From NCBI GenBank assembly GCA_016179965.1, contig JACPCF010000019.1:561-64560 (forward strand): a stretch of DNA of 64,000 nucleotides. Direction: 5' to 3'. This DNA comes from Candidatus Rokuibacteriota bacterium (GTDB lineage Bacteria; Methylomirabilota; Methylomirabilia; Rokubacteriales; CSP1-6). This document shows positions 1,076 to 13,334 of the stretch, piece by piece; the stretch's first letter is position 1, and the number at the start of each line of letters is the position of its first letter. The position numbers and the translations under genes are program-made. The notes under the pieces are model-generated. The model worked only from the letters and a program-made list of their open reading frames with translations, made no database searches and was not told the DNA's origin.

Positions 1076-1792
1076 TCAGGACGGGGCCAGGTCTTCGAAG
1101 ACCGCGCGGTAGAGACCATCCCAGAACCGGGCCCGGGCGCCCAAGGAGGCGTGGGCCCCCTCGAGAATGCGCTCGTGGTTCTCGGGCGTCTCGGCGTAGC
1201 GGGCTAGAGCCATCCGAAGGAGTCTCCCGTGCTCGAGGTCCTGGGCCACGTGCAGGGTGAAGTACTCCAGCGGTTTGTCCTCCACTCCGACCTTCCGAAG
1301 GCCCTCCACCAGGTAGGCGAACATCGTAGGGATCGCCCACTCATGGCCGGGGCCCACAGCCCCCAGCCCCACCAGATAGTGACGGAGCGAGGTCAGCTCG
1401 ATGTGATGGTTGATGAAGGCCCGGGTCTCCGGGAGGGCCTCCACGCGGTCCCAGTCTTCTTCGCTAAGCCCGAGGGCGCGCAGGAACCGCCGGTAGAGCG
1501 CGGGATGGGAGCAGTCATAGGTCTGAGGACGGGCGTACTCATCCTCCAGTACCATATGGATCCAGTCCCTCACCTCCTGCTCCGGGATGCTCTTGACCAG
1601 GGCTTCCAGATAGGTCGTGAACACCCGAACGAGCTGATAGTGCTGGAGACCAAAAGCCCAGAGCTGAATCCGTCGCAGGCCGCCCTCGGCGAACCGACGC
1701 AGGAAGGGGTGGTGCAGGGCGGGATGGCTTCGAACCTCGGCTTCCAAGCGCTGAAGGAAGAGCTCAGCGCGCGTGGGATCAGTTCCGGGCAT
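1076..1792 (-). CDS. TenA/PqqC-like (haem-oxygenase-like fold) iron-containing redox enzyme family protein
   Basis: ORF 1076..1906; likely start MPGTDP (ATG 1790-1792); helical E/H-rich translation typical of the PqqC/TenA superfamily. Confidence 0.55.
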   Translation of the reverse strand: MPGTDPTRAELFLQRLEAEVRSHPALHHPFLRRFAEGGLRRIQLWAFGLQHYQLVRVFTTYLEALVKSIPEQEVRDWIHMVLEDEYARPQTYDCSHPALYRRFLRALGLSEEDWDRVEALPETRAFINHHIELTSLRHYLVGLGAVGPGHEWAIPTMFAYLVEGLRKVGVEDKPLEYFTLHVAQDLEHGRLLRMALARYAETPENHERILEGAHASLGARARFWDGLYRAVFEDLAPS

Positions 1793-1805: not shown

Positions 1806-2216
1806 TCAGAAGGTGAGGACCTTGTCGGCGGTCGCGACCTCTTCCAAGAGGAAGGCCGTAAGCCCGCGCACCTCGATGCCGTCGAGGAGATCCTCGGCCT
1901 CCACACCGCAAATCGCCATGGAGGAGCTACAGGCGTAGAGCCGCACGTCCCCGAGCTCCATTACCTGTCGCAAAAGCCCCGGCAGGTCTGTGAGCGCCAG
2001 GGCCGAGAGGCGCTCCCGCACCGCCGCCTCGTGCTCGCGATAAGCCTCCGAGAGGTTGATCTCCTGGACCCCTCTCTTGGTCACCTTGAGGACCGCCTCG
2101 TCGCGAAAGAACACCCTCACTGCCACCCCCGAGCTGACGGCCGCCATCAGCAGCGTCACAACTTGGACGAGGCTGTTGAAGTTGCCGTGCGAGGCGATGA
2201 CGGCCAGGGTGTTCAC
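1806..2216 (-). CDS. DsrE/DsrF-like sulfur-relay family protein
   Basis: C-terminal 136 aa of ORF 1806..2555 (VNTLAVIASHG..., Cys-containing YACSSSMAICG); GTG start at 2214-2216 overlaps the tusA-like stop. Confidence 0.6.
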   Translation of the reverse strand: MNTLAVIASHGNFNSLVQVVTLLMAAVSSGVAVRVFFRDEAVLKVTKRGVQEINLSEAYREHEAAVRERLSALALTDLPGLLRQVMELGDVRLYACSSSMAICGVEAEDLLDGIEVRGLTAFLLEEVATADKVLTF

Positions 2217-2512
2217 GGAGTGGGTTCGCCGGCCCGCTTCTGGACGAAGGAGACGATGAGCGAGCCCCAGCGGGCGTCGGGCTCCCGCCGGTGACCGAGG
2301 AACCGGTGGCCGGTGGTCCGGCACCAGGCAGGGTAGTCGTGCTCGGCGGCGAGGTCCGTCGAGAGCACTTTGACGACACCCGCCGGACCCACGGTCAGCA
2401 TCGCCCGCATCAGCCGGAGGATGCCCTGGGCGCAGAGCATCCCCCGGTTGTCCACCACGGTGGAGACCGTGCCTTCCTCGACCGGACGCCCCTCCCCGCT
2501 TACCAGTTCCAT
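2213..2512 (-). CDS. TusA-like sulfurtransferase
   Basis: 99 aa; DYPAWCRTTGHRF matches the TusA C-terminal signature; Cys in the LCAQG motif. Confidence 0.7.
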   Translation of the reverse strand: MELVSGEGRPVEEGTVSTVVDNRGMLCAQGILRLMRAMLTVGPAGVVKVLSTDLAAEHDYPAWCRTTGHRFLGHRREPDARWGSLIVSFVQKRAGEPTP

Positions 2513-2883
2513 ACTGTGTCGAACTGGTCCACGAACTTTCCCATCTCTTTCCCACTGAGGAGCTGGACTCCCTCGGTCAGCTCGTCTTTCTTGATCCCAC
2601 GCTCCTCCAGGTCTTCGCGCACGGCGTAGACGGGGATGTTCGCCTGGTGGACCGACTTGAGGTCGGTCTCAATCAGGAAGCCGGGCTGGACGAGCGTCCC
2701 GGCAATCCTAATCCCGGTCCCGTCCTGGCCGCGGACCGCATAGTTGACGGCGTCCCCCCGCAGGAGCAGCGTCAGGGGTTGCCCCGCCACCGAGGCAAAG
2801 GCGGAGGCGAAGAGGCCGATGTCGCTGTCCTCAAGGTTTCCGTACTCGGTGTGAGCGAGCACGGAGAGAATCTTCTTAGCCAT
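2500..2883 (-). CDS. DsrE/DsrF-like family protein
   Basis: 127 aa, MAKKILSVLAHTEYGN...; GGAGGG Shine-Dalgarno upstream of the start. Confidence 0.7.
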   Translation of the reverse strand: MAKKILSVLAHTEYGNLEDSDIGLFASAFASVAGQPLTLLLRGDAVNYAVRGQDGTGIRIAGTLVQPGFLIETDLKSVHQANIPVYAVREDLEERGIKKDELTEGVQLLSGKEMGKFVDQFDTVWNW

Positions 2884-2905
2884 GGCCCTGTCCCTCCGAT
2901 TTCTG

Positions 2906-3337
2906 TTAGTGGGCCGACATCAAGAGCGTCTTGTCGGCCTGGTCCGTGAACTTGTAGAGGTCCCCGAGCGTGCCGTGCACGACGGGATCGAGGTGGTAGC
3001 CCTGTGGAACGCCCCGTTCCACACAGCAGAGCCCTCAGACGTACCACTGGAGCTTGGGCTCGCTCTTCCCCTTCTCCAGGAGCCGGGCCACGAACTCCGC
3101 CGTGGTGTTGTGGGCCTTGCCCACGTCGGTGTGATGCGCGGCGTTGGTCTTCCAGATCGGGTCGTCGTGCTGGGCCTGGGCCTTGGCGGTGAGGAGCACG
3201 CCGTCCTCGTAGGCCAGCACGTTGACGTTGTACCCCTTGTCGAGGGCCGTGTCCACCAGCCGGAAGAGGCTGATGGGGGTCTCGTTGCCGTACGGTCCCG
3301 CCGTGATGCAGATGTGAAGGGTCTTCCGGTTCGCCAT
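2906..3337 (-). CDS. DsrE-like protein, candidate selenoprotein (in-frame TGA at 3035-3037 read as Sec)
   Basis: ORF 3035..3337 (100 aa) stops at TGA. The same frame continues 42 codons (GLCCVERGVPQGYHLDPVVHGTLGDLYKFTDQADKTLLMSAH) to TAA at 2906-2908. The KFTDQ(A)D segment parallels the KFVDQFD C-terminus of the neighbouring DsrE paralog. Confidence 0.55.
3003..3023 (-). promoter_or_regulatory. SECIS-like mRNA hairpin (UGUGGAACG-GGG-CGUUCCACA) 11 nt downstream of the in-frame UGA
   Basis: perfect 9-bp stem with 3-nt G-rich loop read directly from the sequence; position matches the bacterial SECIS spacing. Confidence 0.5.
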
Positions 3338-3349
3338 ATCGGGCTCCTC

Positions 3350-3679
3350 TCAATGCCAGATGGCTTTGTCTGACTTCTCCATCAGGAGGTCGATGAGTTC
3401 ATCCGCATTGCTCACCCGGACCCCCTCGGAGAGCCGCTCCTTGGTGATGCCGCGCTGTCGAAGAGAGATCTCGTCCGCCAGGAGCGTCAAGTTATGGGTC
3501 TTGGCCTCGGCCAGGAGCTTCTCACCCGCCTCGAAGCGCTTCCGCGCGGCGAAGACCGCATCCTGCACGAGATAGATCGTGACGTTGTGCCGGAGCTCCC
3601 GGAGCTGCTTCGCCAGCTCGAACGCGTGCTCCCCGCCCTCCAGCGGGCTCTTGGACTCGACTAAAAGGTACTGGGCCAT
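3350..3679 (-). CDS. DsrE/DsrF/DsrH-like family protein
   Basis: 109 aa, MAQYLLVESKSPLEGG... Confidence 0.6.
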   Translation of the reverse strand: MAQYLLVESKSPLEGGEHAFELAKQLRELRHNVTIYLVQDAVFAARKRFEAGEKLLAEAKTHNLTLLADEISLRQRGITKERLSEGVRVSNADELIDLLMEKSDKAIWH

Positions 3680-3696: not shown

Positions 3697-4512
3697 TCAG
3701 GCTTTCGTTCGGGTAATTGCCAGAGAGGGATCGGTGGGACGCACTGGATCCCGCTCAGCAACCGCACAAGAAGCGTCGAACCACCGGAGTCGGCCGCGCA
3801 AGCGAACGACATCGCCGATAACGGCGACCACAGGCGGCTGAAGCCCCGCGGCCTTGTCCAGGATGTCGGCGAGCGTGCCGGTGATCGTCTGCTGGGCTTC
3901 AGTCGTCCCCCAGCGGATGAGGGCCACGGGGGTCTCCGGGGAGCGACCGTGGGCCAGAAGCTCAGCGACGATCCGGGGCAGCGTCCGCGCCCCCATCAGG
4001 ACGACCAGGGTGTCCACCGCGGTCGCCAGCCGTTCCCACTCCACGGCGGGCTCACCCTTGCACCCGTCCTCGTGGCCCGTGACGACGGCGAAGGAGGACG
4101 CCAGCCCACGGTGGGTGAGGGGGATTCCCGCGTAGGCCGGCACCGCCACGGCCGAGCTGACCCCTGGCACGACCTCGAAGGGGATCCCCGCCGCCGCTAG
4201 AGCCTCTGCCTCCTCCCCGCCCCGGCCGAAGACGAAGGGATCGCCACCTTTCAGTCTGACTACCCGACGGCCGCGTCGAGCGTGGGCGATGAGGAGATCA
4301 TTGATCTGCTCCTGGGGCAGGCTGTGGCCGCCGGCGAGCTTGCCGGCAAAGATGCGCAGCGCGTCGGGCGGCGACTCGTCGAGCAGGATCGGGTTGACCA
4401 GGCGATCATAGATCACCACCTCGGCCTTCCGCAGCACTTCCAGGCCACGCACCGTCAGGAGACCAGGATCGCCCGGCCCCGCGCCGACCAGATAGACGGT
4501 GGCTACCCGCAT
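3697..4512 (-). CDS. cobA: uroporphyrinogen-III C-methyltransferase (sirohaem branch)
   Basis: VYLVGAGPGDPGLLT...GGDPFVFGRGGEE motifs; start MRVATV at 4512 overlaps the upstream gene by 10 nt. Confidence 0.9.
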   Translation of the reverse strand: MRVATVYLVGAGPGDPGLLTVRGLEVLRKAEVVIYDRLVNPILLDESPPDALRIFAGKLAGGHSLPQEQINDLLIAHARRGRRVVRLKGGDPFVFGRGGEEAEALAAAGIPFEVVPGVSSAVAVPAYAGIPLTHRGLASSFAVVTGHEDGCKGEPAVEWERLATAVDTLVVLMGARTLPRIVAELLAHGRSPETPVALIRWGTTEAQQTITGTLADILDKAAGLQPPVVAVIGDVVRLRGRLRWFDASCAVAERDPVRPTDPSLAITRTKA

Positions 4513-5138
4513 GTCCCCGCCCTGAGCCGCGACAAGAGACGCGCCTTGGCTTCGTCCCGGCGCCCTTCGGCGATCAGGCTCCGGAGGTCTCCGTCGAGCG
4601 CCCGGCGCCACGCCGCGCCGTCGGGAAGCCGCCCGCGCTCCTTCAGCTCCTGCCTGACCTCCGCCGCGACCTCGGCGAGCACGGCGTAATCCTCCGTGAA
4701 ATAGGCCTCGAGCTCGTCTCTCACCGCGCGGGACAGGGCCGGGCTCGCGCCTCCCGTGGCCACCGCCACCACGAGCGCCCCCCGCCGGACGACGGCGGGA
4801 AGAATGAAATCACAATGGGCTGGATCGTCGGCGGCGTTGACCCACACGCCCCGTTCCCTCCCTTCGCGGGCGACGGTCGCATTGACCTCCCCGCCGTCGG
4901 AAGCGGCAAAAGCCAACTCCGAGCCCGACAGATCGCCGGGGCGGTATTCCCGGGCCACGTGCCGGATTCGCCCCTCCCCGGCCAGCACCCCAAGGCGCGG
5001 GGTGAGCGCGGGACTGATCACCGTCACGGATGCTTCCGCGGCGATGAGGGCCTCCACCTTGTGCTCGGCCACCCGACCGCCGCCGATGACGACGCACCGT
5101 CGCCCGGCCACCTCGAGGAAGACCGGATAGTAGCCCAT
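4503..5138 (-). CDS. sirC: precorrin-2 dehydrogenase/sirohydrochlorin ferrochelatase (SirC/CysG N-terminal domain-like)
   Basis: 211 aa, Rossmann motif VVIGGGRVA and family resemblance. Confidence 0.8.
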   Translation of the reverse strand: MGYYPVFLEVAGRRCVVIGGGRVAEHKVEALIAAEASVTVISPALTPRLGVLAGEGRIRHVAREYRPGDLSGSELAFAASDGGEVNATVAREGRERGVWVNAADDPAHCDFILPAVVRRGALVVAVATGGASPALSRAVRDELEAYFTEDYAVLAEVAAEVRQELKERGRLPDGAAWRRALDGDLRSLIAEGRRDEAKARLLSRLRAGTCG

Positions 5139-5141
5139 CCC

Positions 5142-8027
5142 TCAGCCGTCCACGCCGTGGGGCGGCCGCCCCGGTGAGGGATCCCGGTCCGCCGCGGCGA
5201 CCTCGGCGCCGGCCAGGAATTCTCGGAGCTTGTCGTCGGTGTGACGGGCGCAGAACCGGCGGAAGTTCTCTCCGTTGACCCGCCCCGAAAGGTAAGTCTT
5301 GAGCAGCCGCTCGATGGCTGCCGGCACCTCGACCGCGGGAGCGCGGTAGCCGATGGGACGTGCTTTGGCCTGGTATTTCCCCACGGCCCCCCCCACGCAG
5401 AAGTAATAGGCATCCACCATCTGGCCTTCCACCTTCATCTTCTTCCCCTCGATCCCGATGTCCGCGATCCAGTGCTGCCCGCAGCTGTTGGGGCAGCCGG
5501 TGATGTGGATCTTGACGTGCTGTTCGAAACCGGGCAGGCGCGTTTCAAGATCCTCCACCAGCCAGCGGGCGAAGTTCTTCGTTTCGCTCAGCGCGAGCTT
5601 GCAGAACTCCGTCCCCGTGCAGGCGATGGTGCCCCGCCAGAAGGGCGAGGCGTCGATCCTGAACCCCGCGTCCCCGAGCTCCCGCGCCAGCCGCTCGGCG
5701 CGGTCCCGGCGGACGTTCAGGATGAGGAGGTTCTGCATGTTGGTCGTCCGGAGCTCCCCCGTGCCGTAGAGCTCCGCGAGGTCCGCCACGGCCCGCATCT
5801 CACCCGGAGACATGCGTCCGCGGAGGACGGCAATCCCCGCGTAGCAGTAGCCGTCCTGCCTCTGGGGGTGGATTCCCACGTGGTCCCGGTAGACGTCGTC
5901 CGGAGGATCCTCTGGGACCGCGGGGTCCAGGCTGAACCCCATCCGGCGTTCCAGCTCTTCCTGAAATCGCCCGGCCGTCCAGCCGTGGGTGAGGAAGAGG
6001 AACTTGAGTCGCGCCTTCTCCCGATTCTGGCGGAGGACGTCGCTGTCACGGAAGATCTCGGAGATCCCCTTTACGACGGGAAGAACCTGGTTCCAGCGCA
6101 CAAAGGCGTTGAGCCGGAGGCCGAGGTGCGGGTCGGTGGACAGCCCACCGCCTACCCGCACGGAGAAGCCGATCTCGCCGGTCTGGGGGTCCGGGAGAGC
6201 GGTCATTCCGATGTCGTTGATCTCCGGATACGAGCACCAGACCCGGCAGCCGGTGATGGAGATCTTGTACTTGCGCGGGAGGTTGTAGAAGTCAGGATTG
6301 CCGTTCAGCATCCCGGTCGCCGCACGGACCAGCGGGGAGGCGTCCACGACCTCGTCGGCGTCCACGCCGGCCAGCGGGCAGCCGGTGACGTTGCGGGTGT
6401 CGTCGCCGCAGGCGCCCATCGTGGTGATGCCGCACCGCCAGAGGCTTTGAAAGATCTCCGGGAGGTCCTCGATCTTCACCCAGTGGAGCTGGACGTTCTG
6501 CCGGACGGTGATGTCCGCGACCCCGCGCGCGTGCCTCTCCGCGAGGTCGGCAAGGGTCCGGAGCTGGTGGGAGAGGAGGAAGCCGTTGGGGAGGCGGATC
6601 CGGACCATGAAATAGGGCACCGCCTTGCCTTCGCCCCCCTTTCCCCCCACCGCGCCGATGCCATCGCCCTGGGTGTACACCCCCCACCAGCGGAAATACG
6701 TATTGAGCCACTCGGCCGGGATCGATTGATAGCCCTCGCGGGCGAACCGGACGATCTCCGAATAGGCGTCCCACGGGTTCAGCGCGCGCTTGAGCCGCTC
6801 GGCCCGCTGGGCCTTGGTCTCTTTCACGGGCTCTGCCGGGGCGCGAGGAGTCTCGGGCCCCCGCACCCAATTCCGCAGGATTTCGGCCACTTCCGGACGG
6901 GTAAACTCCGCGGGGAGAGGCTCCCCCCGCCCCAAGAGTTCGCGTACCAGGCTCCCGCTCAGGGCCATCCGGTCCGACGGATTGTGCGGGCAGGTTTTGG
7001 GAGACGTAATGGCCTCGCACCGACGGCAGTAGAAGGTCTCATCGAAAAAGAGGGGGACGACGCCGAGCTCCTCGGAGGCGAACCGGCGGAAGATCTCGTC
7101 CACCGTCAGCGGGGAGGACGCGGTCTCGACCCCCGCGTATTCGCGCCCGACAATAAAGTGGGTGCAGCCATAATTCTTCCGGACGAGGGCGTGGAAGAGC
7201 GTCTCTCTGGGGCCCGCATACCGCATCGCGCCAGGAAACACCGCCAGCACCACGCGGTCCTTGGGGTAGTACTGCTCGACCAGAACCTGGTAGCAGCGGA
7301 CGCGGACCTCCGAGGGAACCTCGTCGAGCTTGGTCTGCCCCACAAGCGGGTGGATGAGGAGGCCGTCGAGCGGCTCCAACGCGCACTTCTGCACGTATTC
7401 ATGGGCGCGGTGGATGGGGTGCTGGCTCTGAAATCCGACGACGGTGCGCCACCCAAGCGCCTCGAACCGAGCCCGCGTCGCGGAGGGATCGAGACGGTAG
7501 GCCTCGAACCCCTTCAGGGGAGGACGGGTGATCAGGTCCACCTTTCCGGCCAGAAGCACATCGCCCCGGCTAAGCTGATACTGGGCCCCGGGGTGACGGG
7601 GGTCCTCCGTCCCGTAGACCAGGCGGGCCTCCTCGCGCCCATCGTAGGGGAAACGCTCTTTCAGGTGCAGGATGCCGAGCGGCTCCTCCCATGGGGACAC
7701 GAGGGCCACCTCTTCCCCTTCCCTCAACACGTCGGCGTCAGCGCGCCGGACCGCCAGCGTGATCGGCAGAGGCCAGGGAAGGCCGTTGGCCAGGCGCATC
7801 TCCTGAAGGACGCTCCGGTAGTCGGCCTCACCGATGAACCCTTCGAGGGGGCTGTAGGCCCCGACCGCGATCAGCTCGACATCGGACATCGTGCGGGCGT
7901 TCAGGGCGATACGCTTCAACGAGGAAACGCGCCGGCCGGCCTCATCTCGGGCTTCGCCACGGAGGACTCGATCGACCAGCACCCCACCGTGGGGGGGAAT
8001 CGTGGTTCCTACGGACGCCTGAGTCAT
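5142..8027 (-). CDS. fusion protein: N-terminal sulfate adenylyltransferase (ATP sulfurylase) + C-terminal sirohaem ferredoxin-type sulfite reductase hemoprotein
   Basis: single uninterrupted 972-codon ORF. N-terminal part has IPPHGG...QSQHPIHRAHE...GREYAGVE; C-terminal part has the 4Fe-4S/sirohaem Cys cluster CTGTEFC...CPNSC. Likely start MTQASV (ATG 8025-8027). Confidence 0.85.
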   Translation of the reverse strand: MTQASVGTTIPPHGGVLVDRVLRGEARDEAGRRVSSLKRIALNARTMSDVELIAVGAYSPLEGFIGEADYRSVLQEMRLANGLPWPLPITLAVRRADADVLREGEEVALVSPWEEPLGILHLKERFPYDGREEARLVYGTEDPRHPGAQYQLSRGDVLLAGKVDLITRPPLKGFEAYRLDPSATRARFEALGWRTVVGFQSQHPIHRAHEYVQKCALEPLDGLLIHPLVGQTKLDEVPSEVRVRCYQVLVEQYYPKDRVVLAVFPGAMRYAGPRETLFHALVRKNYGCTHFIVGREYAGVETASSPLTVDEIFRRFASEELGVVPLFFDETFYCRRCEAITSPKTCPHNPSDRMALSGSLVRELLGRGEPLPAEFTRPEVAEILRNWVRGPETPRAPAEPVKETKAQRAERLKRALNPWDAYSEIVRFAREGYQSIPAEWLNTYFRWWGVYTQGDGIGAVGGKGGEGKAVPYFMVRIRLPNGFLLSHQLRTLADLAERHARGVADITVRQNVQLHWVKIEDLPEIFQSLWRCGITTMGACGDDTRNVTGCPLAGVDADEVVDASPLVRAATGMLNGNPDFYNLPRKYKISITGCRVWCSYPEINDIGMTALPDPQTGEIGFSVRVGGGLSTDPHLGLRLNAFVRWNQVLPVVKGISEIFRDSDVLRQNREKARLKFLFLTHGWTAGRFQEELERRMGFSLDPAVPEDPPDDVYRDHVGIHPQRQDGYCYAGIAVLRGRMSPGEMRAVADLAELYGTGELRTTNMQNLLILNVRRDRAERLARELGDAGFRIDASPFWRGTIACTGTEFCKLALSETKNFARWLVEDLETRLPGFEQHVKIHITGCPNSCGQHWIADIGIEGKKMKVEGQMVDAYYFCVGGAVGKYQAKARPIGYRAPAVEVPAAIERLLKTYLSGRVNGENFRRFCARHTDDKLREFLAGAEVAAADRDPSPGRPPHGVDG

Positions 8028-8135
8028 GCGCCGGTGCCCCTGTGTCGGAGAAAGGTACACTTTCCGATCAAGAATGTCAAGAAGTAACGTAAATCCAGGA
8101 AAGGCAATTACTTCGGGGTGGCTGGGGCAGCCCGT

Positions 8136-9530
8136 CTAGACCAGAACCAGGCCGGCGGCGGCTTCGCCGGAGTGGACGCAGTCGGAGATGCCAACGCCGC
8201 AGTAGGCGCTCCCGGCGAGCGCCAGCCCCGGATGGCCAACCAGCCGCCGCTCGATCGCCGCCACAGTCTCCAGGTGGCCCACGTGGTACTGGGCCATCGA
8301 GGCCGGGTAGCGGTGGACGCGGGTGAGCAGGGGCGGTGCTGTCACGCCGAGCAGCTCGTTCAGCTGGGCCCTCACGATCGCCGCCATCCGCGCGTCGTCC
8401 TCCTTGAGGATGCCCTCGTCGAGGGGGCCGCCGACGAAAACGCGAAGCAGGGCGTGACCAGGCGGGGCCCGCCCCGGGTACTTCACGCTGGAGAAGGTGC
8501 AGGCCAGGAGCGGGCGACGCTCGATCCGGGGCACGACGAAGCCGAAGCCGTCCAGCGGATGGGCGATCTCCTCCCGGCGGTAGGCGAGCGCGACCGTCGC
8601 CGATGAGGCGTACGGAATCGCCTCAAGAAGATGGGCCAGGCTCGGGTCGAGGGCGCGGACCATGCGCGCGGCCTGGGGCGCCTCGGCCGCCACGATGACC
8701 GCATCCGCGTCCACGCCGCTTCCGTCGGCCAAGCCCACACGCCAGCGGCCACCGTCGCGCCGGAGCCCGACGACCCGTTCCTTGAGCCTCACCGAGCCCG
8801 GCGGGAGGCGATCGCCGAGCGCGCGCGTGAACTCTTCCATCCCGTCCGCAAACGTGACGAAGAGGCTCCAGCGGGCGCCGCTCACCCCTTGGGCCTTCCG
8901 GGACGCGCGCCAGAGCGCCAGGATGAGGCTCCGGTGGGCTCGCTCCATCTCGAGGAAGCGCGGCATGGTCGCCGCCAGGCTCAGGAGATCCGGGTCGGCC
9001 GTGTAGATCCCCGCCACCAGCGGCTGGGCCACTCGCTCCAGCGCTTCGACGCCGAGCCGGCGGCGGACGAAGGACCCGAGGCTCTCATCCTCCGAGCCGA
9101 CCCTCCGCGGCAGCACAACGTCCATCGCCATCCTGAGCTTGCCCCGCCACGAAAAGAGTCGCGAGGAGAGCAGCGGCCCCAGGCGCGCGGGGGCCAGGAG
9201 CTGAAAGCCCTCGGGGAGCGGCTCGAGGCGCCCGCGGAAGACCACCCAGGTCTGGCGGAACCGGTCGTCGGTGCGAACGAGCCGGCCCGCGAGGCCGAGC
9301 CGCTCCGCCAGCGCCAGAGCCCAGGGTTTTTCCGAGATGAAGGAGTCGGGGCCGGCCTCGATCAGGAAGCCCTGGGTGCGCTCGGTGGCGATGGTGCCGC
9401 CGAGACGGTCACGCGCTTCCAGAAGGGTGAGGTCGATCGGCTCGCCGCGCTCGCGGGAAAGCTCGGTGAGCCGGTGAGCCGCGGCGAGGCCGCCAATCCC
9501 GCCGCCCACCACGACCACCCGGCGCGCCAC
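8136..9530 (-). CDS. hemY: protoporphyrinogen/coproporphyrinogen III oxidase (HemY/CgoX family)
   Basis: FAD motif VVVVGGGIGGLAAA; proposed GTG start at 9528-9530. Confidence 0.8.
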   Translation of the reverse strand: MARRVVVVGGGIGGLAAAHRLTELSRERGEPIDLTLLEARDRLGGTIATERTQGFLIEAGPDSFISEKPWALALAERLGLAGRLVRTDDRFRQTWVVFRGRLEPLPEGFQLLAPARLGPLLSSRLFSWRGKLRMAMDVVLPRRVGSEDESLGSFVRRRLGVEALERVAQPLVAGIYTADPDLLSLAATMPRFLEMERAHRSLILALWRASRKAQGVSGARWSLFVTFADGMEEFTRALGDRLPPGSVRLKERVVGLRRDGGRWRVGLADGSGVDADAVIVAAEAPQAARMVRALDPSLAHLLEAIPYASSATVALAYRREEIAHPLDGFGFVVPRIERRPLLACTFSSVKYPGRAPPGHALLRVFVGGPLDEGILKEDDARMAAIVRAQLNELLGVTAPPLLTRVHRYPASMAQYHVGHLETVAAIERRLVGHPGLALAGSAYCGVGISDCVHSGEAAAGLVLV

Positions 9531-9534
9531 GTCG

Positions 9535-10473
9535 TTACGCCCTGAGACCAGCCTTCGCCAGGCCGGCCAGCATCTCGATGAAAGCCGGGTGGTCGTTGAC
9601 GGCGCCGGCGCGATGGAAACGAAGCCCCAGCTCCTCCGCCAGCCGGCGCGCCTCGACGTCCAGGTCGTAGAGCACCTCGACGTGGTCCGAGACAAAGCCG
9701 ATTGGCGCGACCACCACGTCGCCCACGCCCTCCTTGGCCAGCCCGCGCAGGACGTCGCAGATGTCAGGCTCGAGCCAGGGATCGGGCGGCGAGCCACTCC
9801 GGCTCTGATAGGCCACCGACCATCGGGGATAACCGAGCCGTGCCGCCACAGCGCGCGAGGCCGCCGTGAACTGGGCCACGTACGGCGAGCCGTCGGCCAT
9901 CGCCGTGGGAACGCTATGCGCGGTGAAGACGAGCGGCGTGGCCTTCCTTCTGTCCGCGGGAATCGCGGACAAGACGGCCCTCACCCGATCCCCCGCGGCC
10001 TCGATGAAGCGCGGATGGTCGAACCAGGGCGGAGCGTACGAGACCTCCGGCGCCCCCGGGCCCACCTTCTCCCGGGCGGCCGCGACGTCGCCCACGTAGC
10101 GGTCCCAGGAGGCCTCCGTCTCAAAGGACGACAGGATGATCCCCAGGGCGCGCCGGTGGCCCTTGTCTTTCATCTCCGCCAGCGCCTCGTGAAAGAACGG
10201 GTGCCAGTTCCTCATGCCGACGTAGACGGGCACGGAGAGGCCGTCGCGCGTCAAGGCGCGGCGCAGCCCCTCCGCCTGGAGAAGCGTGAGATCGTTCAGC
10301 GGGGAGCGACCGCCGATGACTTCGTAATGGTGCGCTACTTCTTCGAGGCGCTCGGCAGGAATGTGCCGGCCCGCGGTGACGATCTGGAGGAAGGGGCGGA
10401 TGTCCTCGGGCTTTTCCGGGCCGCCGAAGGCGATCAGCAAGACCGAATCCACCACGCTCATGGCCGCGCCCAC
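9535..10473 (-). CDS. hemH: ferrochelatase (HemH/CpfC)
   Basis: 312 aa, LLIAFGGPEKPEDIRPFL...; alternative start ATG at 10461. Confidence 0.85.
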   Translation of the reverse strand: MGAAMSVVDSVLLIAFGGPEKPEDIRPFLQIVTAGRHIPAERLEEVAHHYEVIGGRSPLNDLTLLQAEGLRRALTRDGLSVPVYVGMRNWHPFFHEALAEMKDKGHRRALGIILSSFETEASWDRYVGDVAAAREKVGPGAPEVSYAPPWFDHPRFIEAAGDRVRAVLSAIPADRRKATPLVFTAHSVPTAMADGSPYVAQFTAASRAVAARLGYPRWSVAYQSRSGSPPDPWLEPDICDVLRGLAKEGVGDVVVAPIGFVSDHVEVLYDLDVEARRLAEELGLRFHRAGAVNDHPAFIEMLAGLAKAGLRA

Positions 10474-10477
10474 AGCA

Positions 10478-11593
10478 CTATCTCGCGTCGTTCGAGCGCG
10501 GGCTTTGCCCGCGCAACCCCGGGGGGGAGGAATCGGAAGGGGGGCGGAGCCCCCCTCCGAGCGAAGACAGCTCGTGAACCATCTCCACCATCGCGATCAC
10601 GTGCTCCACGGACGTCTCGGGGAGGACCCCGTGGCCGAGGTTGAAGATGTGGCCGGGCCGGGCGGCGGCCCGATCGAGGATCGCCCGGACATGCCGCTTG
10701 ATCTCGGCGGGCTTCGCGAGCAGCACGGCCGGGTCGAGGTTCCCCTGGACCGCCACGTCGTAGCCGATGCGCTTCCAGGCGTCGGCCAGGTCCACGCGCC
10801 AGTCGAGACCGATCACGTCCCCCCCCGCCTCGCGCAGCAGCTCGAGCAGGCCCGCGGTGCCCGTGCTGAAGTGGATGACGGGAACGCCCGGCGTGAGCCC
10901 TTTGATGACGGCGCGCGTATGGGGCAGGACGAACTCGCGGTAGGCGTCGGGCGAGAGCGCCCCCACCCAGGAGTCGAAGAGCTGCACGGCCTGGGCGCCC
11001 GCGGCGATCTGGCCGTTCACGTAGCCGACGGTGACCCTGACGAGGCGCTCCATGAGGGCGTGCCACGCGGCGGGATCGTCGTGCATCAGCCGCTTCGTGT
11101 GGAGATACTCGCGGGACGCGCTGCCCTCGATCAGGTAGGAGGCCACCGTGAAGGGCGCGCCGGCGAAGCCGATCAGCGGCACTCGCGCGGCCAGCGCCTT
11201 GCGCACCGTGCGGATCGCCTCGAAGACGAAGGGCGTCGCCTCCCGGGGGTCCACGTCCGCCAGCCGCCGGAGATCCGCCGCGCCGCGCACGGGACGGTGG
11301 ATGAGGGGCCCTTCCCCCTTGGCGAACTCCAGGCCCACCCCCATGGGCTCAACCGGCAGGAGAATGTCGGCGAAGATGATCGCGGCGTCCACGCCGAGGC
11401 GCTCCACCGGCAAGAGAGTCACCTCGGCAGCCGCCTCGGGATTCTTGCAGAGCTCCAGGAAGCCGAACCGCTCGCGGAGCGCGCGGTACTCGGCCATGAA
11501 GCGCCCCGCCTGGCGCATGAGCCAGACCGGGGTGAACTCGGTGGGCTCGCGCCGGCACGCGCGGAGAAAGGGAGCGGGCGCCGCGGCGTTCAT
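10478..11593 (-). CDS. hemE: uroporphyrinogen decarboxylase
   Basis: PVWLMRQAGR motif; start MNAAAP (ATG 11591-11593). The last ~28 codons are encoded by repeat family 1 copy A. Confidence 0.85.
   Translation of the reverse strand: MNAAAPAPFLRACRREPTEFTPVWLMRQAGRFMAEYRALRERFGFLELCKNPEAAAEVTLLPVERLGVDAAIIFADILLPVEPMGVGLEFAKGEGPLIHRPVRGAADLRRLADVDPREATPFVFEAIRTVRKALAARVPLIGFAGAPFTVASYLIEGSASREYLHTKRLMHDDPAAWHALMERLVRVTVGYVNGQIAAGAQAVQLFDSWVGALSPDAYREFVLPHTRAVIKGLTPGVPVIHFSTGTAGLLELLREAGGDVIGLDWRVDLADAWKRIGYDVAVQGNLDPAVLLAKPAEIKRHVRAILDRAAARPGHIFNLGHGVLPETSVEHVIAMVEMVHELSSLGGGLRPPSDSSPPGLRGQSPRSNDAR
10491..10562 (+). repeat. repeat family 1, copy A (short form: hairpin GAGCGCGGGCTTTGCCCGCGC + GGGGGGCGGAGCCCCCCTCCGAG)
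   Basis: direct comparison with copies B to E. Confidence 0.8.
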
Positions 11594-11651
11594 GGATGAT
11601 CGAGCGTACAGGAAGCGCCGCGGATTGACAACTCTCGGCACCTGGGCGACC

Positions 11652-13334
11652 ATGGCGTCCATGCCGTTCATGGCGGGGAAGCAGGCGTTCCTGGAGCTCC
11701 TCAAGCAGGAGGGCGCGGAGGTGCTCTTCGGCAACCCGGGGACCACCGAGCTGCCGCTGATGGACGGCCTGGCGCGCGAGACGCGGATCCACTACATCCT
11801 GGCCCTCCAGGAGGCGGTGGCCATCGCCATGGCCGACGGCTACGCTCAGGCCAGCGGCAAGCTGGCCCCGGTGAACGTCCACATCTCCCCCGGCCTCGGC
11901 AACGCGATGGGGATGCTCTACGACGCCTGGAAGGCCGGCTCTCCTCTGCTCCTGACCGCGGGTCAGCACGATCAATCCTTCACCGTCACCGAGCCCGTCC
12001 TCTGGTCCGAGCTGCCGCCCGTGGCGAAGCCCTACGTGAAGTGGGCGACCGAAGTCCGCCGGCTGGAAGATCTGCCGCGCATCGTGCATCGCGCGGCGAA
12101 AGTCGCTCTGACGCCGCCGACAGGCCCCGTCTTCCTCTCCCTGCCCGTGGACGTGCTCAACGCCGAGCGCGACCTGGAGCTGGGCGAGCCCACCCGCGTG
12201 GACCCGCGGATCCGCGGGGCGCGCGAGGCGGTGGAGCGGGCGGCCGACCTCCTGACCCAGGCCAAGCGACCGCTCATCGTGGCCGGCGACGCCATAGCCC
12301 AGGGCGACGGCCACGCCGAGCTGATCGAGGTGGCCGAGTTGCTCGGCGCGCCGGTCCGCACGGAAGGGATGGCCAACCGCTGCAACTTCCCCTTCACCCA
12401 CCCGCTCTATCAGGGCGCGATCTCGCGCCTGGCCCCCGATCTGCGCGCGCTCCTCCAGCAGCACGACCTGCTCTTCTCCGTGGGCGGCGACCTCTTCACC
12501 CTGTCGCTTCCGTCGGACGTGGAGCCCATGCCCCACGGCCTGACGATCATCCATCTGGACGTGGATCCCTGGGAGGTCGGCAAGAACTACCCTGCCAAGG
12601 TGGCGATCCTCGGCGATCCGAAGGCAACGCTGCCCGAGCTGGCTGAGGCGCTGCGGAAACGCTTCGGAGGAAGCGCGCACCCCGAGGCCCAGCGCCGCAC
12701 GGAGGAAGCGGAGAAGCAACGCGCTCAGACGATCGCCGAGTTGAAGAAGCGCGCGCTGGCCGCGAGCGGCCGTCAGCCGATCGCGCCCTTGGCCCTGATC
12801 CACGCCCTCGCCGAGGGCCTGCCGCCCGACGCGGTGGTCGTGGACGAATCGATCTCCTCGGGAGGAGGCCTCCGGGAACTCCTTCGCTGCCAGGATCCCC
12901 GGAGCTTCTTCGGCCTCCGGGGCGGCGGCATCGGCTGGGGGCTCCCGGCGGCGCTCGGGGTCAAGCTCGCGCTGCCGCGCCGCCCGGTCGTGGCGCTGGT
13001 GGGAGACGGGAGCGCGATGTACACCAACCAGGCCTTCTGGACCGCCGCCCATGAGGGGCTCGGCGTGATCTTCCTGATCGTCAACAACAGGAGTTACCGG
13101 GTCCTGAAGCAGCGCGTCCACGCCCTCAAGGGCTTTTCGGCCCAGGACAACGTGTACGTGGCGATGGACCTCGACAAGCCGCTCATCGACTTCGTCGGGC
13201 TCGCCCAGTCCCTCGGCGTGCCCGGTGAGCGCGTGGAGAAGGCCGCGGACATCGGCCCGGCCCTGGCCCGCGGTCTCGCTGCCGGCGGACCGTACCTCCT
13301 CGACGTCCAGGTGGACGGGACGTTCAAGCCCTAG
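11652..13334 (+). CDS. thiamine-pyrophosphate-dependent enzyme (acetolactate synthase/benzoylformate decarboxylase family)
   Basis: TPP-binding GDGS...NN motif and N-terminal pyrimidine-binding domain; start MASMPF. Confidence 0.8.
   Translation: MASMPFMAGKQAFLELLKQEGAEVLFGNPGTTELPLMDGLARETRIHYILALQEAVAIAMADGYAQASGKLAPVNVHISPGLGNAMGMLYDAWKAGSPLLLTAGQHDQSFTVTEPVLWSELPPVAKPYVKWATEVRRLEDLPRIVHRAAKVALTPPTGPVFLSLPVDVLNAERDLELGEPTRVDPRIRGAREAVERAADLLTQAKRPLIVAGDAIAQGDGHAELIEVAELLGAPVRTEGMANRCNFPFTHPLYQGAISRLAPDLRALLQQHDLLFSVGGDLFTLSLPSDVEPMPHGLTIIHLDVDPWEVGKNYPAKVAILGDPKATLPELAEALRKRFGGSAHPEAQRRTEEAEKQRAQTIAELKKRALAASGRQPIAPLALIHALAEGLPPDAVVVDESISSGGGLRELLRCQDPRSFFGLRGGGIGWGLPAALGVKLALPRRPVVALVGDGSAMYTNQAFWTAAHEGLGVIFLIVNNRSYRVLKQRVHALKGFSAQDNVYVAMDLDKPLIDFVGLAQSLGVPGERVEKAADIGPALARGLAAGGPYLLDVQVDGTFKP

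What the first reader, a model, noticed from the sequence alone, without database searches (positions are those of the whole stretch)
5142..8027. Single-polypeptide fusion of ATP sulfurylase and sirohaem sulfite reductase
One uninterrupted 962-codon reading frame carries a complete ATP sulfurylase domain (about residues 1-400) followed by a complete ferredoxin-type sulfite/nitrite reductase hemoprotein domain with the 4Fe-4S/sirohaem cysteine cluster. Common ATP sulfurylase fusions are to APS kinase or pyrophosphatase. Fusing the first and last enzymes of sulfate reduction while the middle step (APS/PAPS reductase, CysH) is absent from the operon is unusual, and could imply channeling or a non-canonical intermediate.
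Basis: partly seen in the sequence, partly recalled or inferred. Interest (0 to 1): 0.6.

Follow-up and report, generated by a model that had tools for sequence, protein, structure and literature searches.

The report
Altered ATP-sulfurylase domain on sulfite reductase
A Rokubacteria gene really does join an ATP-sulfurylase-type domain to a sirohaem sulfite reductase in one protein, but the sulfurylase half has replaced the residues that hold sulfate and sits next to a normal sulfurylase and APS reductase in three relatives, so it is more likely a re-purposed helper module than a first-step-plus-last-step shortcut.

Summary
Minus strand 5142..8027 is one uninterrupted 961-codon gene with PUA_2, an ATP-sulfurylase domain, a ~45-aa linker and a SirA/NirA-type sirohaem-[4Fe-4S] reductase. 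At least 55 independent protein clusters (73-94% identity), all named Rokubacteria/Methylomirabilota where a name is given, have the same architecture. An exhaustive search of 1.8 billion representatives found it nowhere else.

The interpretation needs correcting. Every fused copy has lost the ATP-sulfurylase signature residues: QTRN is now QS[Q/H][Q/H], GRD is GRE, and the lid Asp is Glu. The ~170 standalone relatives examined all keep TRN, except two standalone intermediates. HxxH and the zinc motif are kept.

The domain is not decaying. It is the most constrained part of the protein (dN/dS 0.05-0.13), and most replacement residues are fixed.

In three relatives the fusion shares an operon with a canonical Sat (64-68% identical) and an APS reductase. 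The absence of cysH here is therefore a local operon arrangement, not evidence of new chemistry.

Best reading: a neofunctionalised, ligand-binding Sat paralogue tethered to sulfite reductase, probably regulatory. This parallels the inactive sulfurylase-like domains on some APS kinases. Its ligand is unknown. Moderately interesting; a new variant of a known kind.

The parts
5142..8027 (-). Whole gene: ATP-sulfurylase-like domain fused to a SirA/NirA-type sirohaem sulfite reductase (961 aa plus stop)
   Evidence: Homologues with the same architecture.
7527..8000 (-). PUA_2 domain (aa 10-167)
   Evidence: Pfam PF14306, 3e-50. dN/dS 0.07-0.19.
6870..7502 (-). ATP-sulfurylase-like nucleotidyltransferase core (aa 176-386)
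   Evidence: Pfam PF01747, 2e-81. Best solved relative is 8A8D (ATP sulfurylase), E = 2e-90. dN/dS 0.05-0.13, the lowest in the protein.
7401..7433 (-). Altered RNP loop plus retained HxxH: FQSQHPIHRAH (canonical FQTRNPIHRSH)
   Evidence: Residue roles from PMC3779200.
7320..7340 (-). Lid loop GQTKLDE (canonical GxxKxxD; the Asp that pairs with the RNP Arg is Glu here)
   Evidence: Role from PMC3779200.
7125..7148 (-). Altered GRD loop: GREYAGVE (canonical GRD[H/A/P]AGVG)
6984..7028 (-). Retained Cys3-His zinc motif CRRCEAITSPKTCPH
   Evidence: Invariant in alignments A1 and A2. The motif is described in PMC3779200.
6738..6869 (-). Inter-domain linker (aa 387-430), Pro/Ala/Glu/Lys-rich
   Evidence: Highest dN/dS (0.12-0.48) and lowest identity. 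The total length of fused homologues varies (956-986 aa).
5145..6737 (-). SirA/NirA-type sirohaem-[4Fe-4S] reductase half (aa 431-961)
   Evidence: Pfam NIR_SIR_ferr/NIR_SIR x2. Best solved relative is M. tuberculosis NirA/SirA, 1ZJ8, E = 3e-90. It is 83% identical to the standalone SiR that precedes CysH-TauE in L002.
5481..5621 (-). Cluster/sirohaem cysteines C803, C809, C845, C849 (CTGTEFC...GCPNSC)
   Evidence: Aligned to 1ZJ8.
6402..6689 (-). Tyr451 (WWGVYTQ) and Cys540 (GACGD), aligned to the Tyr-Cys pair of M. tuberculosis SirA
   Evidence: Alignment; coordinates. The covalent Cys-Tyr bond is taken from the title of Schnell et al. 2005, cited in PMC11947256. Which residues form the bond is from my memory.
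8052..8080 (-). Promoter-like TTGACA-17-TACCTT in the 108-bp gap after hemY
   Evidence: Read from the sequence. The region is ~89% conserved ahead of the standalone SiR in L002. It was not called by the consensus scan because the -10 hexamer matches only 3 of 6, so this is weak.
4503..5138 (-). SirC/CysG-N-like precorrin-2 dehydrogenase/ferrochelatase; starts 3 nt after the fusion's stop
   Evidence: Pfam NAD_binding_7, Sirohm_synth_M. Conserved downstream in L001, L002, L004 and L009.
3697..4512 (-). Uroporphyrinogen-III C-methyltransferase (SUMT)
   Evidence: Pfam TP_methylase, 1e-58. Start refined.
8136..11746 (-). Upstream hemE-hemH-hemY haem genes, syntenic with the closest relatives
   Evidence: URO-D and Amino_oxidase hits. 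Same order in L001, L002, L004 and L009. The window's middle gene (hemH, about 9535..10473) was inferred from synteny and not tested.

Best explanation
The gene encodes a ferredoxin-type, SirA/NirA-like sirohaem-[4Fe-4S] sulfite reductase. Its N-terminus carries a duplicated copy of the lineage's own ATP sulfurylase that has since been re-engineered.

The duplicated domain keeps:
- the nucleotidyltransferase scaffold;
- the HxxH motif that holds the beta/gamma phosphates;
- the Arg of the GRD loop;
- the lid loop;
- the zinc site.

The residues that hold sulfate and the alpha-phosphate have been replaced. Arg became Gln/His, Asn became Gln/His, the lid Asp that pairs with that Arg became Glu, and GRD became GRE. 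Most of these replacements were then fixed.

The domain is therefore most likely not the pathway's sulfate-activating enzyme. I read it as a ligand-binding module, probably sensing an adenine nucleotide or sulfonucleotide, tethered by a flexible linker. It would regulate or organise sulfite reduction, as the inactive sulfurylase-like domains of some APS kinases and the kinase-like allosteric domain of fungal ATP sulfurylase are thought to do. In this window it is co-transcribed with the sirohaem-synthesis genes that supply the reductase's cofactor.

Shown: the architecture, the motif changes and their fixation, purifying selection, paralogy to canonical Sat, and co-occurrence with canonical Sat and CysH in three relatives. 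Inferred: loss of sulfurylase activity, ligand binding, and a regulatory role.
For: (1) All 56 full-length fused sequences have FQS[Q/H][Q/H]PxHRAH, and all carry Glu in place of the GRD Asp (GREYAG where the motif could be read). All 89 standalone relatives of 370-420 aa in that comparison, and 78 of 78 non-Rokubacteria genomic relatives, have TRN and GRD.

[quoted passage not shown] It assigns the Arg side chain to the sulfate oxygens, the Asn side chain to the alpha-phosphate, and the lid Asp to pairing with that Arg. PMC6607087 lists the same four motifs.

(3) Only 15 positions switch between the canonical and fused sets, and they cluster in the pocket loops. Ten of the 15 replacements are 100% fixed.

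(4) dN/dS of the sulfurylase-like core is 0.05-0.13, lower than the reductase half at 0.11-0.17. The pocket is therefore under selection.

(5) In L001, L007 and L009 the fusion lies in one operon with a canonical Sat (FQTRNPIHRSH/GRDAAG, checked in L001; 64-68% identical to the fused domain) and an APS-reductase-type CysH.

(6) Two standalone intermediates (P0137, P0140) carry the RNP-loop and lid changes but keep GRDHAG. This shows a stepwise path that began before the fusion.

(7) Precedents: catalytically inactive sulfurylase-like domains on E. histolytica and T. denitrificans APS kinases (PMC13213808), and the inactive kinase-like PAPS-binding domain of P. chrysogenum ATPS (PMC3734648).
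Against: - The domain still scores above NCBIfam's cut-off for sulfate adenylyltransferase (481 vs 387 bits), and HxxH, which is essential for activity (PMC11697783), is intact. Strong purifying selection is therefore equally compatible with catalysis.
- No canonical Sat or CysH lies within this 64-kb window or within the up-to-10-kb flanks held for L004, L005, L006 and L011. If such genomes have no other Sat, the fused domain would have to be the sulfurylase.
- No ligand has been identified.
- No published mutagenesis of the Arg/Asn positions was available in the library. The soybean ATPS mutagenesis I recall could not be retrieved.
- The AlphaFold model was too poor to examine the pocket or any interface.
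Confidence: 0.45

Rival explanations
1. The N-half is still a working ATP sulfurylase with unusual active-site residues. The protein would then be bifunctional for the first and last steps of sulfate reduction.
For: - The NCBIfam sulfate adenylyltransferase score is above the cut-off.
- HxxH, the GR-loop Arg, the MRYAGPRE segment and the zinc site are conserved.
- Purifying selection is strong.
- No other Sat is seen in the window or in several related loci.
Against: - The sulfate-binding Arg and the alpha-phosphate Asn are absent in all fused copies, and most have Gln-Gln, with no positive charge.
- These residues are invariant in every canonical standalone relative examined and are described as strictly conserved.
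- Three relatives keep an intact canonical Sat in the same operon, which would be redundant under this reading.
Confidence: 0.2
2. The N-half is a neofunctionalised adenylyltransferase that activates an acceptor other than sulfate. Candidates include sulfite or thiosulfate, another oxyanion, or the C-terminal carboxylate of a ThiS/MoaD-type sulfur carrier. The new chemistry would be coupled to sulfide production by the fused reductase.
For: - The ATP/PPi-side residues are kept while the acceptor-side residues are exchanged and then fixed. That pattern suggests a change of specificity rather than a loss of function.
- This core is the most constrained part of the protein.
- One relative (P0046/L089) has a complete ThiS/MoaD carrier ending in ...AIAGG joined in-frame to the domain.
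- A SiR-ThiS-PAPS-reductase fusion exists elsewhere (P0378).
Against: - The ThiS link rests on one cluster on a 3.9-kb contig, and the junction deletes the first ~16 residues of the domain, so it may be an assembly or deletion artefact.
- No ThiS-like gene lies near the fusion in the window or in L001-L011.
- The Asn that contacts the alpha-phosphate, which any adenylyl transfer would be expected to need, is also changed.
- I know of no precedent for this fold acting on a different acceptor class (from my memory).
Confidence: 0.2
3. The N-half is a ligand-free scaffold that only drives oligomerisation, or docks onto the canonical Sat. This is what has been proposed for the sulfurylase-like domain of T. 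denitrificans APS kinase.
For: - There is a precedent (PMC13213808).
- From my memory, bacterial Sats are homo-oligomers.
- The domain is 64-68% identical to the co-encoded Sat, so interface compatibility is plausible.
Against: - A pure scaffold would not be expected to keep HxxH, the GR-loop Arg and the lid loop invariant.
- It would also not be expected to fix specific new residues at pocket positions.
- The catalytic core is more constrained than the rest of the protein.
Confidence: 0.1
4. The fusion is an artefact: a missed stop or frameshift, or a chimeric assembly, and there are really two genes.
For: - One relative (L090) has an in-frame stop in the linker.
- The public annotation of the source contig calls only a 608-aa product.
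Against: - At least 55 independent clusters and seven genomic loci from different projects have the uninterrupted frame.
- L090 has only 4.9x coverage and differs by a single base.
- The 608-aa call starts at an internal Met inside the sulfurylase domain, so it is an annotation choice rather than a sequence difference.
Confidence: 0.02

Closest known systems
APS kinases with an N-terminal, catalytically inactive ATP-sulfurylase-like domain (Thiobacillus denitrificans, PDB 3CR8; Entamoeba histolytica EhAPSK)
   Same: A sulfurylase-fold domain that no longer has the sulfurylase signature is fused to another enzyme of sulfur assimilation. A canonical sulfurylase is encoded separately (PMC13213808). 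3CR8 is a detectable homologue.
   Different: The partner here is sulfite reductase, not APS kinase. HxxH is retained, the changed residues are fixed, and the domain is under very strong constraint. That argues for a working pocket, whereas for T. denitrificans only a structural role has been proposed. The motif state of those domains was not compared here because the paper was not held.
Penicillium chrysogenum ATP sulfurylase with a C-terminal APS-kinase-like allosteric domain
   Same: A paralogous pathway enzyme is recruited as a non-catalytic, effector-binding regulatory domain (PMC3734648).
   Different: The roles of the folds are reversed. The effector is known there (PAPS) and unknown here.
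Canonical homo-oligomeric ATP sulfurylase Sat (e.g. 8A8D, 1V47, 2GKS; Rokubacteria Sat such as P0143/P0164)
   Same: The PUA_2 plus ATP-sulfurylase fold is the same, with 60-72% identity to Rokubacteria Sats. HxxH, the GR Arg, MRYAGPRE and the Cys3His zinc motif are shared.
   Different: TRN is replaced by S[Q/H][Q/H], the lid Asp by Glu, and GRD by GRE. The segment after the GRD loop is remodelled, and the domain is fused to a reductase.
Mycobacterium tuberculosis SirA (formerly NirA), PDB 1ZJ8
   Same: It is the best solved relative of the C-half, aligned over ~530 residues. The four cluster/sirohaem cysteines and the aligned Tyr and Cys are shared. In relatives the same SiR type sits with an APS-reductase-type CysH, as in mycobacteria.
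   Different: SirA is a standalone ~560-aa protein. The C-half scores below NCBIfam's equivalog cut-offs for both the NirA family and ferredoxin-nitrite reductase, so sulfite rather than nitrite as the substrate is inferred from context.
Other Sat fusions: Sat-APS kinase (PAPS synthase type), PAPS/APS reductase-Sat, Sat-phosphodiesterase/pyrophosphatase-like, pyruvate-kinase-barrel-Sat-APSK
   Same: Sat is a frequent fusion partner within sulfur metabolism. All of these architectures were seen among the hits here.
   Different: Where I checked the motifs (the Chloroflexota Sat-phosphodiesterase loci), those fusions keep the canonical TRN/GRD motifs. They also join Sat to a neighbouring step or to PPi removal. 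None joins Sat to SiR.

Membership tests
ATP sulfurylase / sulfate adenylyltransferase (Sat, EC 2.7.7.4) | PUA_2 plus ATP-sulfurylase fold, with family HMM scores above the curated cut-offs | tested here: met
   PF14306 3e-50 and PF01747 2e-81. NF003166 scores 481 bits against a cut-off of 387; TIGR00339 scores 380 against 323.
ATP sulfurylase / sulfate adenylyltransferase (Sat, EC 2.7.7.4) | QXRN (RNP) loop: Arg binds sulfate and Asn binds the alpha-phosphate | tested here: not met
   The window has QSQH. All 56 fused sequences have QS[Q/H][Q/H], while all canonical standalone relatives have QTRN. Roles.
ATP sulfurylase / sulfate adenylyltransferase (Sat, EC 2.7.7.4) | HXXH nucleotidyltransferase motif | tested here: met
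   HRAH is invariant. The motif is essential in human PAPSS (PMC11697783).
ATP sulfurylase / sulfate adenylyltransferase (Sat, EC 2.7.7.4) | GRD loop (VGRD[H]AG) | tested here: not met
   The window has GREYAG, and the Glu is invariant in the 56 fused sequences. Canonical relatives have GRD[H/A/P]AG.
ATP sulfurylase / sulfate adenylyltransferase (Sat, EC 2.7.7.4) | GxxKxxD mobile lid whose Asp pairs with the RNP Arg on closure | tested here: not met
   The window has GQTKLDE. D236E is fixed in all fused sequences and in the intermediates. Role.
ATP sulfurylase / sulfate adenylyltransferase (Sat, EC 2.7.7.4) | APS synthesis from ATP and sulfate | not testable with these tools
   This needs an enzyme assay.
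SirA/NirA-type ferredoxin-dependent sirohaem sulfite reductase | Two NIR_SIR_ferr/NIR_SIR repeats and four Cys that ligate the [4Fe-4S] cluster and sirohaem | tested here: met
   C803, C809, C845 and C849 align to 1ZJ8.
SirA/NirA-type ferredoxin-dependent sirohaem sulfite reductase | Active-site Tyr and Cys that form the covalent Cys-Tyr link in M. tuberculosis SirA | tested here: met
   Tyr451 (WWGVYTQ) and Cys540 (GACGD) align with the corresponding residues of 1ZJ8. The residue identities in SirA come from my memory of Schnell et al. 2005 (cited). Whether the bond itself forms is not testable here.
SirA/NirA-type ferredoxin-dependent sirohaem sulfite reductase | Score above a curated equivalog cut-off | tested here: not met
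   NF007126 (NirA family) scores 363 against 523. NF007125 (Fd-nitrite reductase) scores 394 against 594.
SirA/NirA-type ferredoxin-dependent sirohaem sulfite reductase | Sulfite rather than nitrite as the substrate | tested here: inconclusive
   Only context speaks to this. The 83%-identical standalone orthologue precedes CysH-TauE, and the fusion precedes CysH in L001, L007 and L009. There is no biochemical test.
Non-catalytic ATP-sulfurylase-like domain (as in T. denitrificans / E. histolytica APS kinase) | Sulfurylase fold lacking catalytic signature residues, fused to another sulfur-assimilation enzyme, with a separate functional sulfurylase in the genome | tested here: inconclusive
   Fold and fusion are met. 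The signature is only partly lost, since HxxH is kept. A separate Sat is shown for three relatives but not for this window's genome.
Non-catalytic ATP-sulfurylase-like domain (as in T. denitrificans / E. histolytica APS kinase) | Absence of sulfurylase activity | not testable with these tools
   This needs an enzyme assay.

The most novel reading that the evidence does not exclude
The remodelled domain is a new enzyme built on the ATP-sulfurylase fold. It still uses ATP (HxxH and the PPi side are kept) but adenylylates a different acceptor. The most provocative candidate is the C-terminal Gly-Gly carboxylate of a ThiS/MoaD-type sulfur-carrier protein. Sulfide made by the tethered reductase would then be captured directly as a protein thiocarboxylate, without an E1-like ThiF/MoeB enzyme. 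The ThiS-(ATPS-like)-SiR join in P0046/L089 would be a Rosetta-stone trace of this.
Probability: 0.1. Interest if true: 0.85.

Novelty: new variant of a known kind. Interest (0 to 1): 0.55.

Why it matters
Sulfate assimilation is textbook biochemistry, and its enzymes are used as marker genes in metagenome surveys.

The practical point is annotation. An abundant soil and groundwater phylum carries a 'sulfate adenylyltransferase' that almost certainly should not be counted as one, and whose reductase half is variously labelled sulfite or nitrite reductase or truncated by gene callers. Pathway inferences for Rokubacteria are affected.

The biological point is evolutionary. This is a clean, datable example of duplication, stepwise pocket remodelling (standalone intermediates exist), fusion and fixation. 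It adds sulfite reductase to the short list of sulfur-assimilation enzymes that have recruited a degenerate paralogue of a pathway enzyme as an accessory domain.

If the pocket binds a sulfonucleotide, it would be the first hint of allosteric or feed-forward control of a bacterial assimilatory sulfite reductase. If it is catalytic, it would be a new activity on the sulfurylase fold.

Tried and rejected
1. The plus-strand 948-aa ORF (5241..8087) was rejected as a high-GC shadow.
2. I tested whether the window's TusA and DsrE/DsrH-like genes downstream of SUMT are part of the system. They have no counterpart in any related locus, so I treat them as a window-specific addition.
3. I looked for a remnant of the sulfurylase domain in the 414-bp gap ahead of the standalone SiR in L002/L003. 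None was found; only the promoter-like region is conserved.
4. Genome-level co-occurrence of the fusion and canonical Sat via genome contigs failed.
5. The full-length AlphaFold2 model on 48 homologues gave pLDDT 62 and pTM 0.52. It is unusable for interface or pocket questions, and no conclusions were drawn from it.
6. Rfam on the leader region found nothing. The consensus promoter scan did not call the TTGACA-17-TACCTT site.
7. Literature searches found no description of a Sat-SiR fusion. Gay et al. 2009 and the soybean ATPS mutagenesis paper could not be retrieved.
8. P0127 (frameshifted) and P0126/L090 (one in-frame stop) were considered as natural split forms. I judged them likely sequence errors or rare variants.
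9. Long ORFs around canonical Sat in Chloroflexota loci were checked as possible independent Sat-SiR fusions. They are Sat-phosphodiesterase-like fusions.
10. Look-up of the source contig through P0060 failed.


Full report
**Observation.** The window is high-GC DNA (about 63-73% in the first 16 kb) with long ORFs on both strands at this position. The minus-strand ORF 5142..8027 translates to a protein with clear enzyme motifs. The overlapping plus-strand ORF gives a low-complexity shadow. From the ATG at 8027 the product is 961 aa, which matches the N-termini of homologues, where about 12 residues precede PHGG. Pfam finds PUA_2 (10-167), ATP-sulfurylase (176-386) and two NIR_SIR_ferr/NIR_SIR repeats. 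NCBIfam's sulfate adenylyltransferase model scores above its cut-off, while the NirA-family and nitrite reductase models score below theirs.

**Is the fusion real?** A search of 5.8 billion proteins returned at least 55 distinct 90%-identity clusters of 915-986 aa with the same four Pfam families at 73-94% identity. They come from NCBI, ENA, JGI and Logan assemblies and are named Rokubacteria/Rokuibacteriota wherever a name exists. Genomic loci L001, L004, L005, L006, L007, L009 and L011 carry the uninterrupted frame. One low-coverage contig (L090) has a single in-frame stop in the linker. The public protein for what is evidently the source contig (MBI2152828.1, 65,449-bp contig) is a 608-aa 'nitrite reductase' starting at internal Met354, so the fusion is hidden by a truncated gene call. 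An exhaustive HMMER pass over 1.84 billion representatives found no protein among the best 150 that matches both halves. The architecture appears confined to this one clade.

**The sulfurylase half is not canonical.** Alignment to solved ATP sulfurylases (8A8D, 2GKS, 1V47) shows FQSQH where they have FQTRN, and GREYAG where they have GRDHAG.

This holds for the whole family:
- All 56 full-length fused sequences have FQS[Q/H][Q/H]PxHRAH, and all carry Glu in place of the GRD Asp (GREYAG where the motif could be read).
- All 89 standalone relatives of 370-420 aa in the comparison have FQTRNPIHRSH and GRD[A/H/P]AG.
- So do 78 of 78 genomic relatives from other phyla.

According to PMC3779200, the RNP and GRD loops are strictly conserved across assimilatory and dissimilatory enzymes. 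The Arg side chain hydrogen-bonds the sulfate oxygens, the Asn side chain the alpha-phosphate, and the Asp of the GxxKxxD lid pairs with that Arg on closure. That Asp is also changed here, to GQTKLDE.

Only 15 positions separate the fused set from the canonical set: V148A, L151Q, T201S, R202Q/H, N203Q/H, S208A, L219P, D236E, A276T, D296E, G301E, Y304F/S, Y307I/L/V, A309V and T359A. Ten of the 15 replacements are 100% fixed. HxxH, the GR-loop Arg, MRYAGPRE and the Cys3-His zinc motif are invariant.

**The domain is constrained and arose stepwise.** Nei-Gojobori dN/dS on six fused genes gives these ranges:
- sulfurylase-like core: 0.05-0.13;
- PUA_2: 0.07-0.19;
- reductase half: 0.11-0.17;
- linker: 0.12-0.48.

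The N-domain is therefore the most constrained part, and the linker looks like a flexible tether. In a distance tree the fused sequences are monophyletic. Two standalone proteins (P0137, 386 aa; P0140, 395 aa) branch with them. These two carry the RNP-loop and lid changes but keep the canonical GRDHAG and the following segment. Remodelling therefore began in a free-standing paralogue, and the second set of changes coincides with the fusion. Such intermediates are rare.

**Context.** In the window the gene follows hemE-(hemH)-hemY after a 108-bp gap. It is followed within 3 nt by a SirC-like gene and then SUMT, which are sirohaem-synthesis genes. Neither cysH nor a TauE permease, a second SiR or a canonical sat occurs anywhere in the 64 kb.

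Relatives show the range of arrangements:
- L001: hemEHY-FUSION-SiR2-HEM4-CysH-TauE-Sat-p95-SirC-SUMT.
- L007: CinA-FUSION-SiR2-TauE-CysH-Sat.
- L009: hemEHY-FUSION-HEM4-CysH-...-Sat-SirC.
- L004 has only HEM4-SirC-SUMT after the fusion.
- In L005 and L006 the gene stands alone.

The co-operonic Sat in L001 is canonical (FQTRNPIHRSH/GRDAAG), and the co-operonic Sats are 64-68% identical to the fused domain. The L001 CysH scores as an APS-reductase type (TIGR02055). In L002/L003 the orthologous reductase (83% identical) is unfused and precedes CysH-TauE-SirC-SUMT. L091/L092 show a conventional operon, CinA-Sat-SiR(type B)-HEM4-CysH-TauE, syntenic with L007. The missing cysH in this window is thus a local arrangement and gives no support to a CysH-independent route.

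**The reductase half.** Its best solved relative is M. tuberculosis NirA/SirA (1ZJ8). The four cluster/sirohaem cysteines are conserved, as are the Tyr (WWGVYTQ) and Cys (GACGD) that align with that enzyme's Tyr-Cys pair. The phylum has a second, ~32-35% identical SiR family ('SiR2'), which lacks that Tyr motif. Sulfite rather than nitrite as the substrate is inferred from context only.

**Mechanism.** The best-supported reading (about 0.45) is that the N-half is a neofunctionalised Sat paralogue. It keeps a nucleotide-binding pocket and lid but no longer activates sulfate, and it serves as a regulatory or organising module tethered to sulfite reductase. There are precedents in the same pathway: inactive sulfurylase-like domains on E. 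histolytica and T. denitrificans APS kinases (PMC13213808), and the inactive kinase-like PAPS-binding domain of P. chrysogenum ATP sulfurylase (PMC3734648).

The rivals are:
- A still-active sulfurylase (0.2). This is favoured by the intact HxxH, the above-threshold family score and the lack of a visible second Sat in most loci.
- A changed-specificity adenylyltransferase (0.2). This is favoured by the pattern of a kept ATP side with an exchanged and fixed acceptor side.
- A ligand-free scaffold (0.1). This is disfavoured by pocket conservation.
- An artefact (0.02).

**Novel lead.** P0046/L089 joins a complete ThiS/MoaD carrier ending in ...AIAGG in-frame to the domain, with the first ~16 residues of the domain deleted. 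A SiR-ThiS-PAPS-reductase fusion (P0378) exists elsewhere. This hints at hand-off of sulfide to a carrier protein. It rests on one short contig, and no ThiS gene lies near the fusion in the other loci.

**Limits.**
- The AlphaFold model was poor.
- Key papers were not retrievable.
- The window's genome outside these 64 kb is unseen.
- No paper in the searchable library describes this fusion.

**Verdict.** This is a new variant of a known kind, a degenerate or remodelled pathway paralogue recruited as an accessory domain, here on sulfite reductase. Interest is about 0.55.

Noticed in passing
window 1806..3679 (-): Five small sulfur-relay-type genes are packed directly after SUMT: TusB/DsrH-like (3350..3679), DsrE-like (3035..3337, weak), DsrE/DsrH-like (2500..2883), TusA-like (2213..2512) and DsrE2-like (1806..2216). 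All hits are below NCBIfam cut-offs. They are probably co-transcribed with the fusion but are absent from every related locus.
   Followed up: partly
window 1076..1792 (-): A Haem_oxygenas_2 / CADD-like iron-containing redox enzyme sits at the end of the same gene string. Its function is unknown.
   Followed up: partly
window 5142..6968 (-) versus public protein MBI2152828.1: The public annotation calls only residues 354-961 (608 aa, 'nitrite reductase'), starting at an internal Met inside the sulfurylase domain. The exact 961-aa product is not in the 15-billion-protein collection.
   Followed up: yes
L089 513..3650 (P0046): A complete ThiS/MoaD-type carrier ending in ...AIAGG is joined in-frame to the sulfurylase-like domain, which lacks its first ~16 residues including PHGG, followed by SiR. 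It is one cluster on a 3.9-kb Logan contig, and could be a real fusion, a deletion or an assembly join.
   Followed up: partly
P0378 (879 aa, representative library): A SiR-ThiS-PAPS_reduct three-part fusion joins the last and middle steps of sulfate reduction with a sulfur-carrier domain.
   Followed up: no
L017 1762..4476, L032 4363..7485, L047 9728..12703; P0256: Chloroflexota carry a canonical Sat (TRN/GRDHAG) fused to a C-terminal type I phosphodiesterase/nucleotide-pyrophosphatase-like domain (Pfam-confirmed for P0256).
   Followed up: partly
P0352, P0361 (about 920 aa): These are pyruvate-kinase-barrel + PUA_2 + ATP-sulfurylase + APS-kinase fusions. Several PAPS_reduct + Sat fusions of ~640 aa were also seen (P0186, P0197, P0203, P0209, P0211).
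   Followed up: no
L090 about 9270-9280: A single in-frame stop lies in the linker of an otherwise intact fusion (...HVGK*TKPQRAERLK), on a 4.9x-coverage contig. It could be a sequencing error or a rare natural split.
   Followed up: partly
L001 12906..14702; L007 6527..8317; L091 11220..13019: A second SiR family ('SiR2', ~598 aa) is ~32-35% identical to the fused type and lacks the WWGxYTQ Tyr motif. It sits next to the fusion in L001 and L007, and is the only SiR in the conventional operon of L091/L092.
   Followed up: partly
L002 about 9650-10000 (and L003 6710-7060): About 360 bp lie between the conserved promoter-like region and the start of the standalone SiR. They show no similarity to the sulfurylase domain and have no annotated gene.
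   Followed up: partly
L001 18209..18496: A 95-aa ORF between canonical Sat and SirC has no Pfam or NCBIfam hit.
   Followed up: partly
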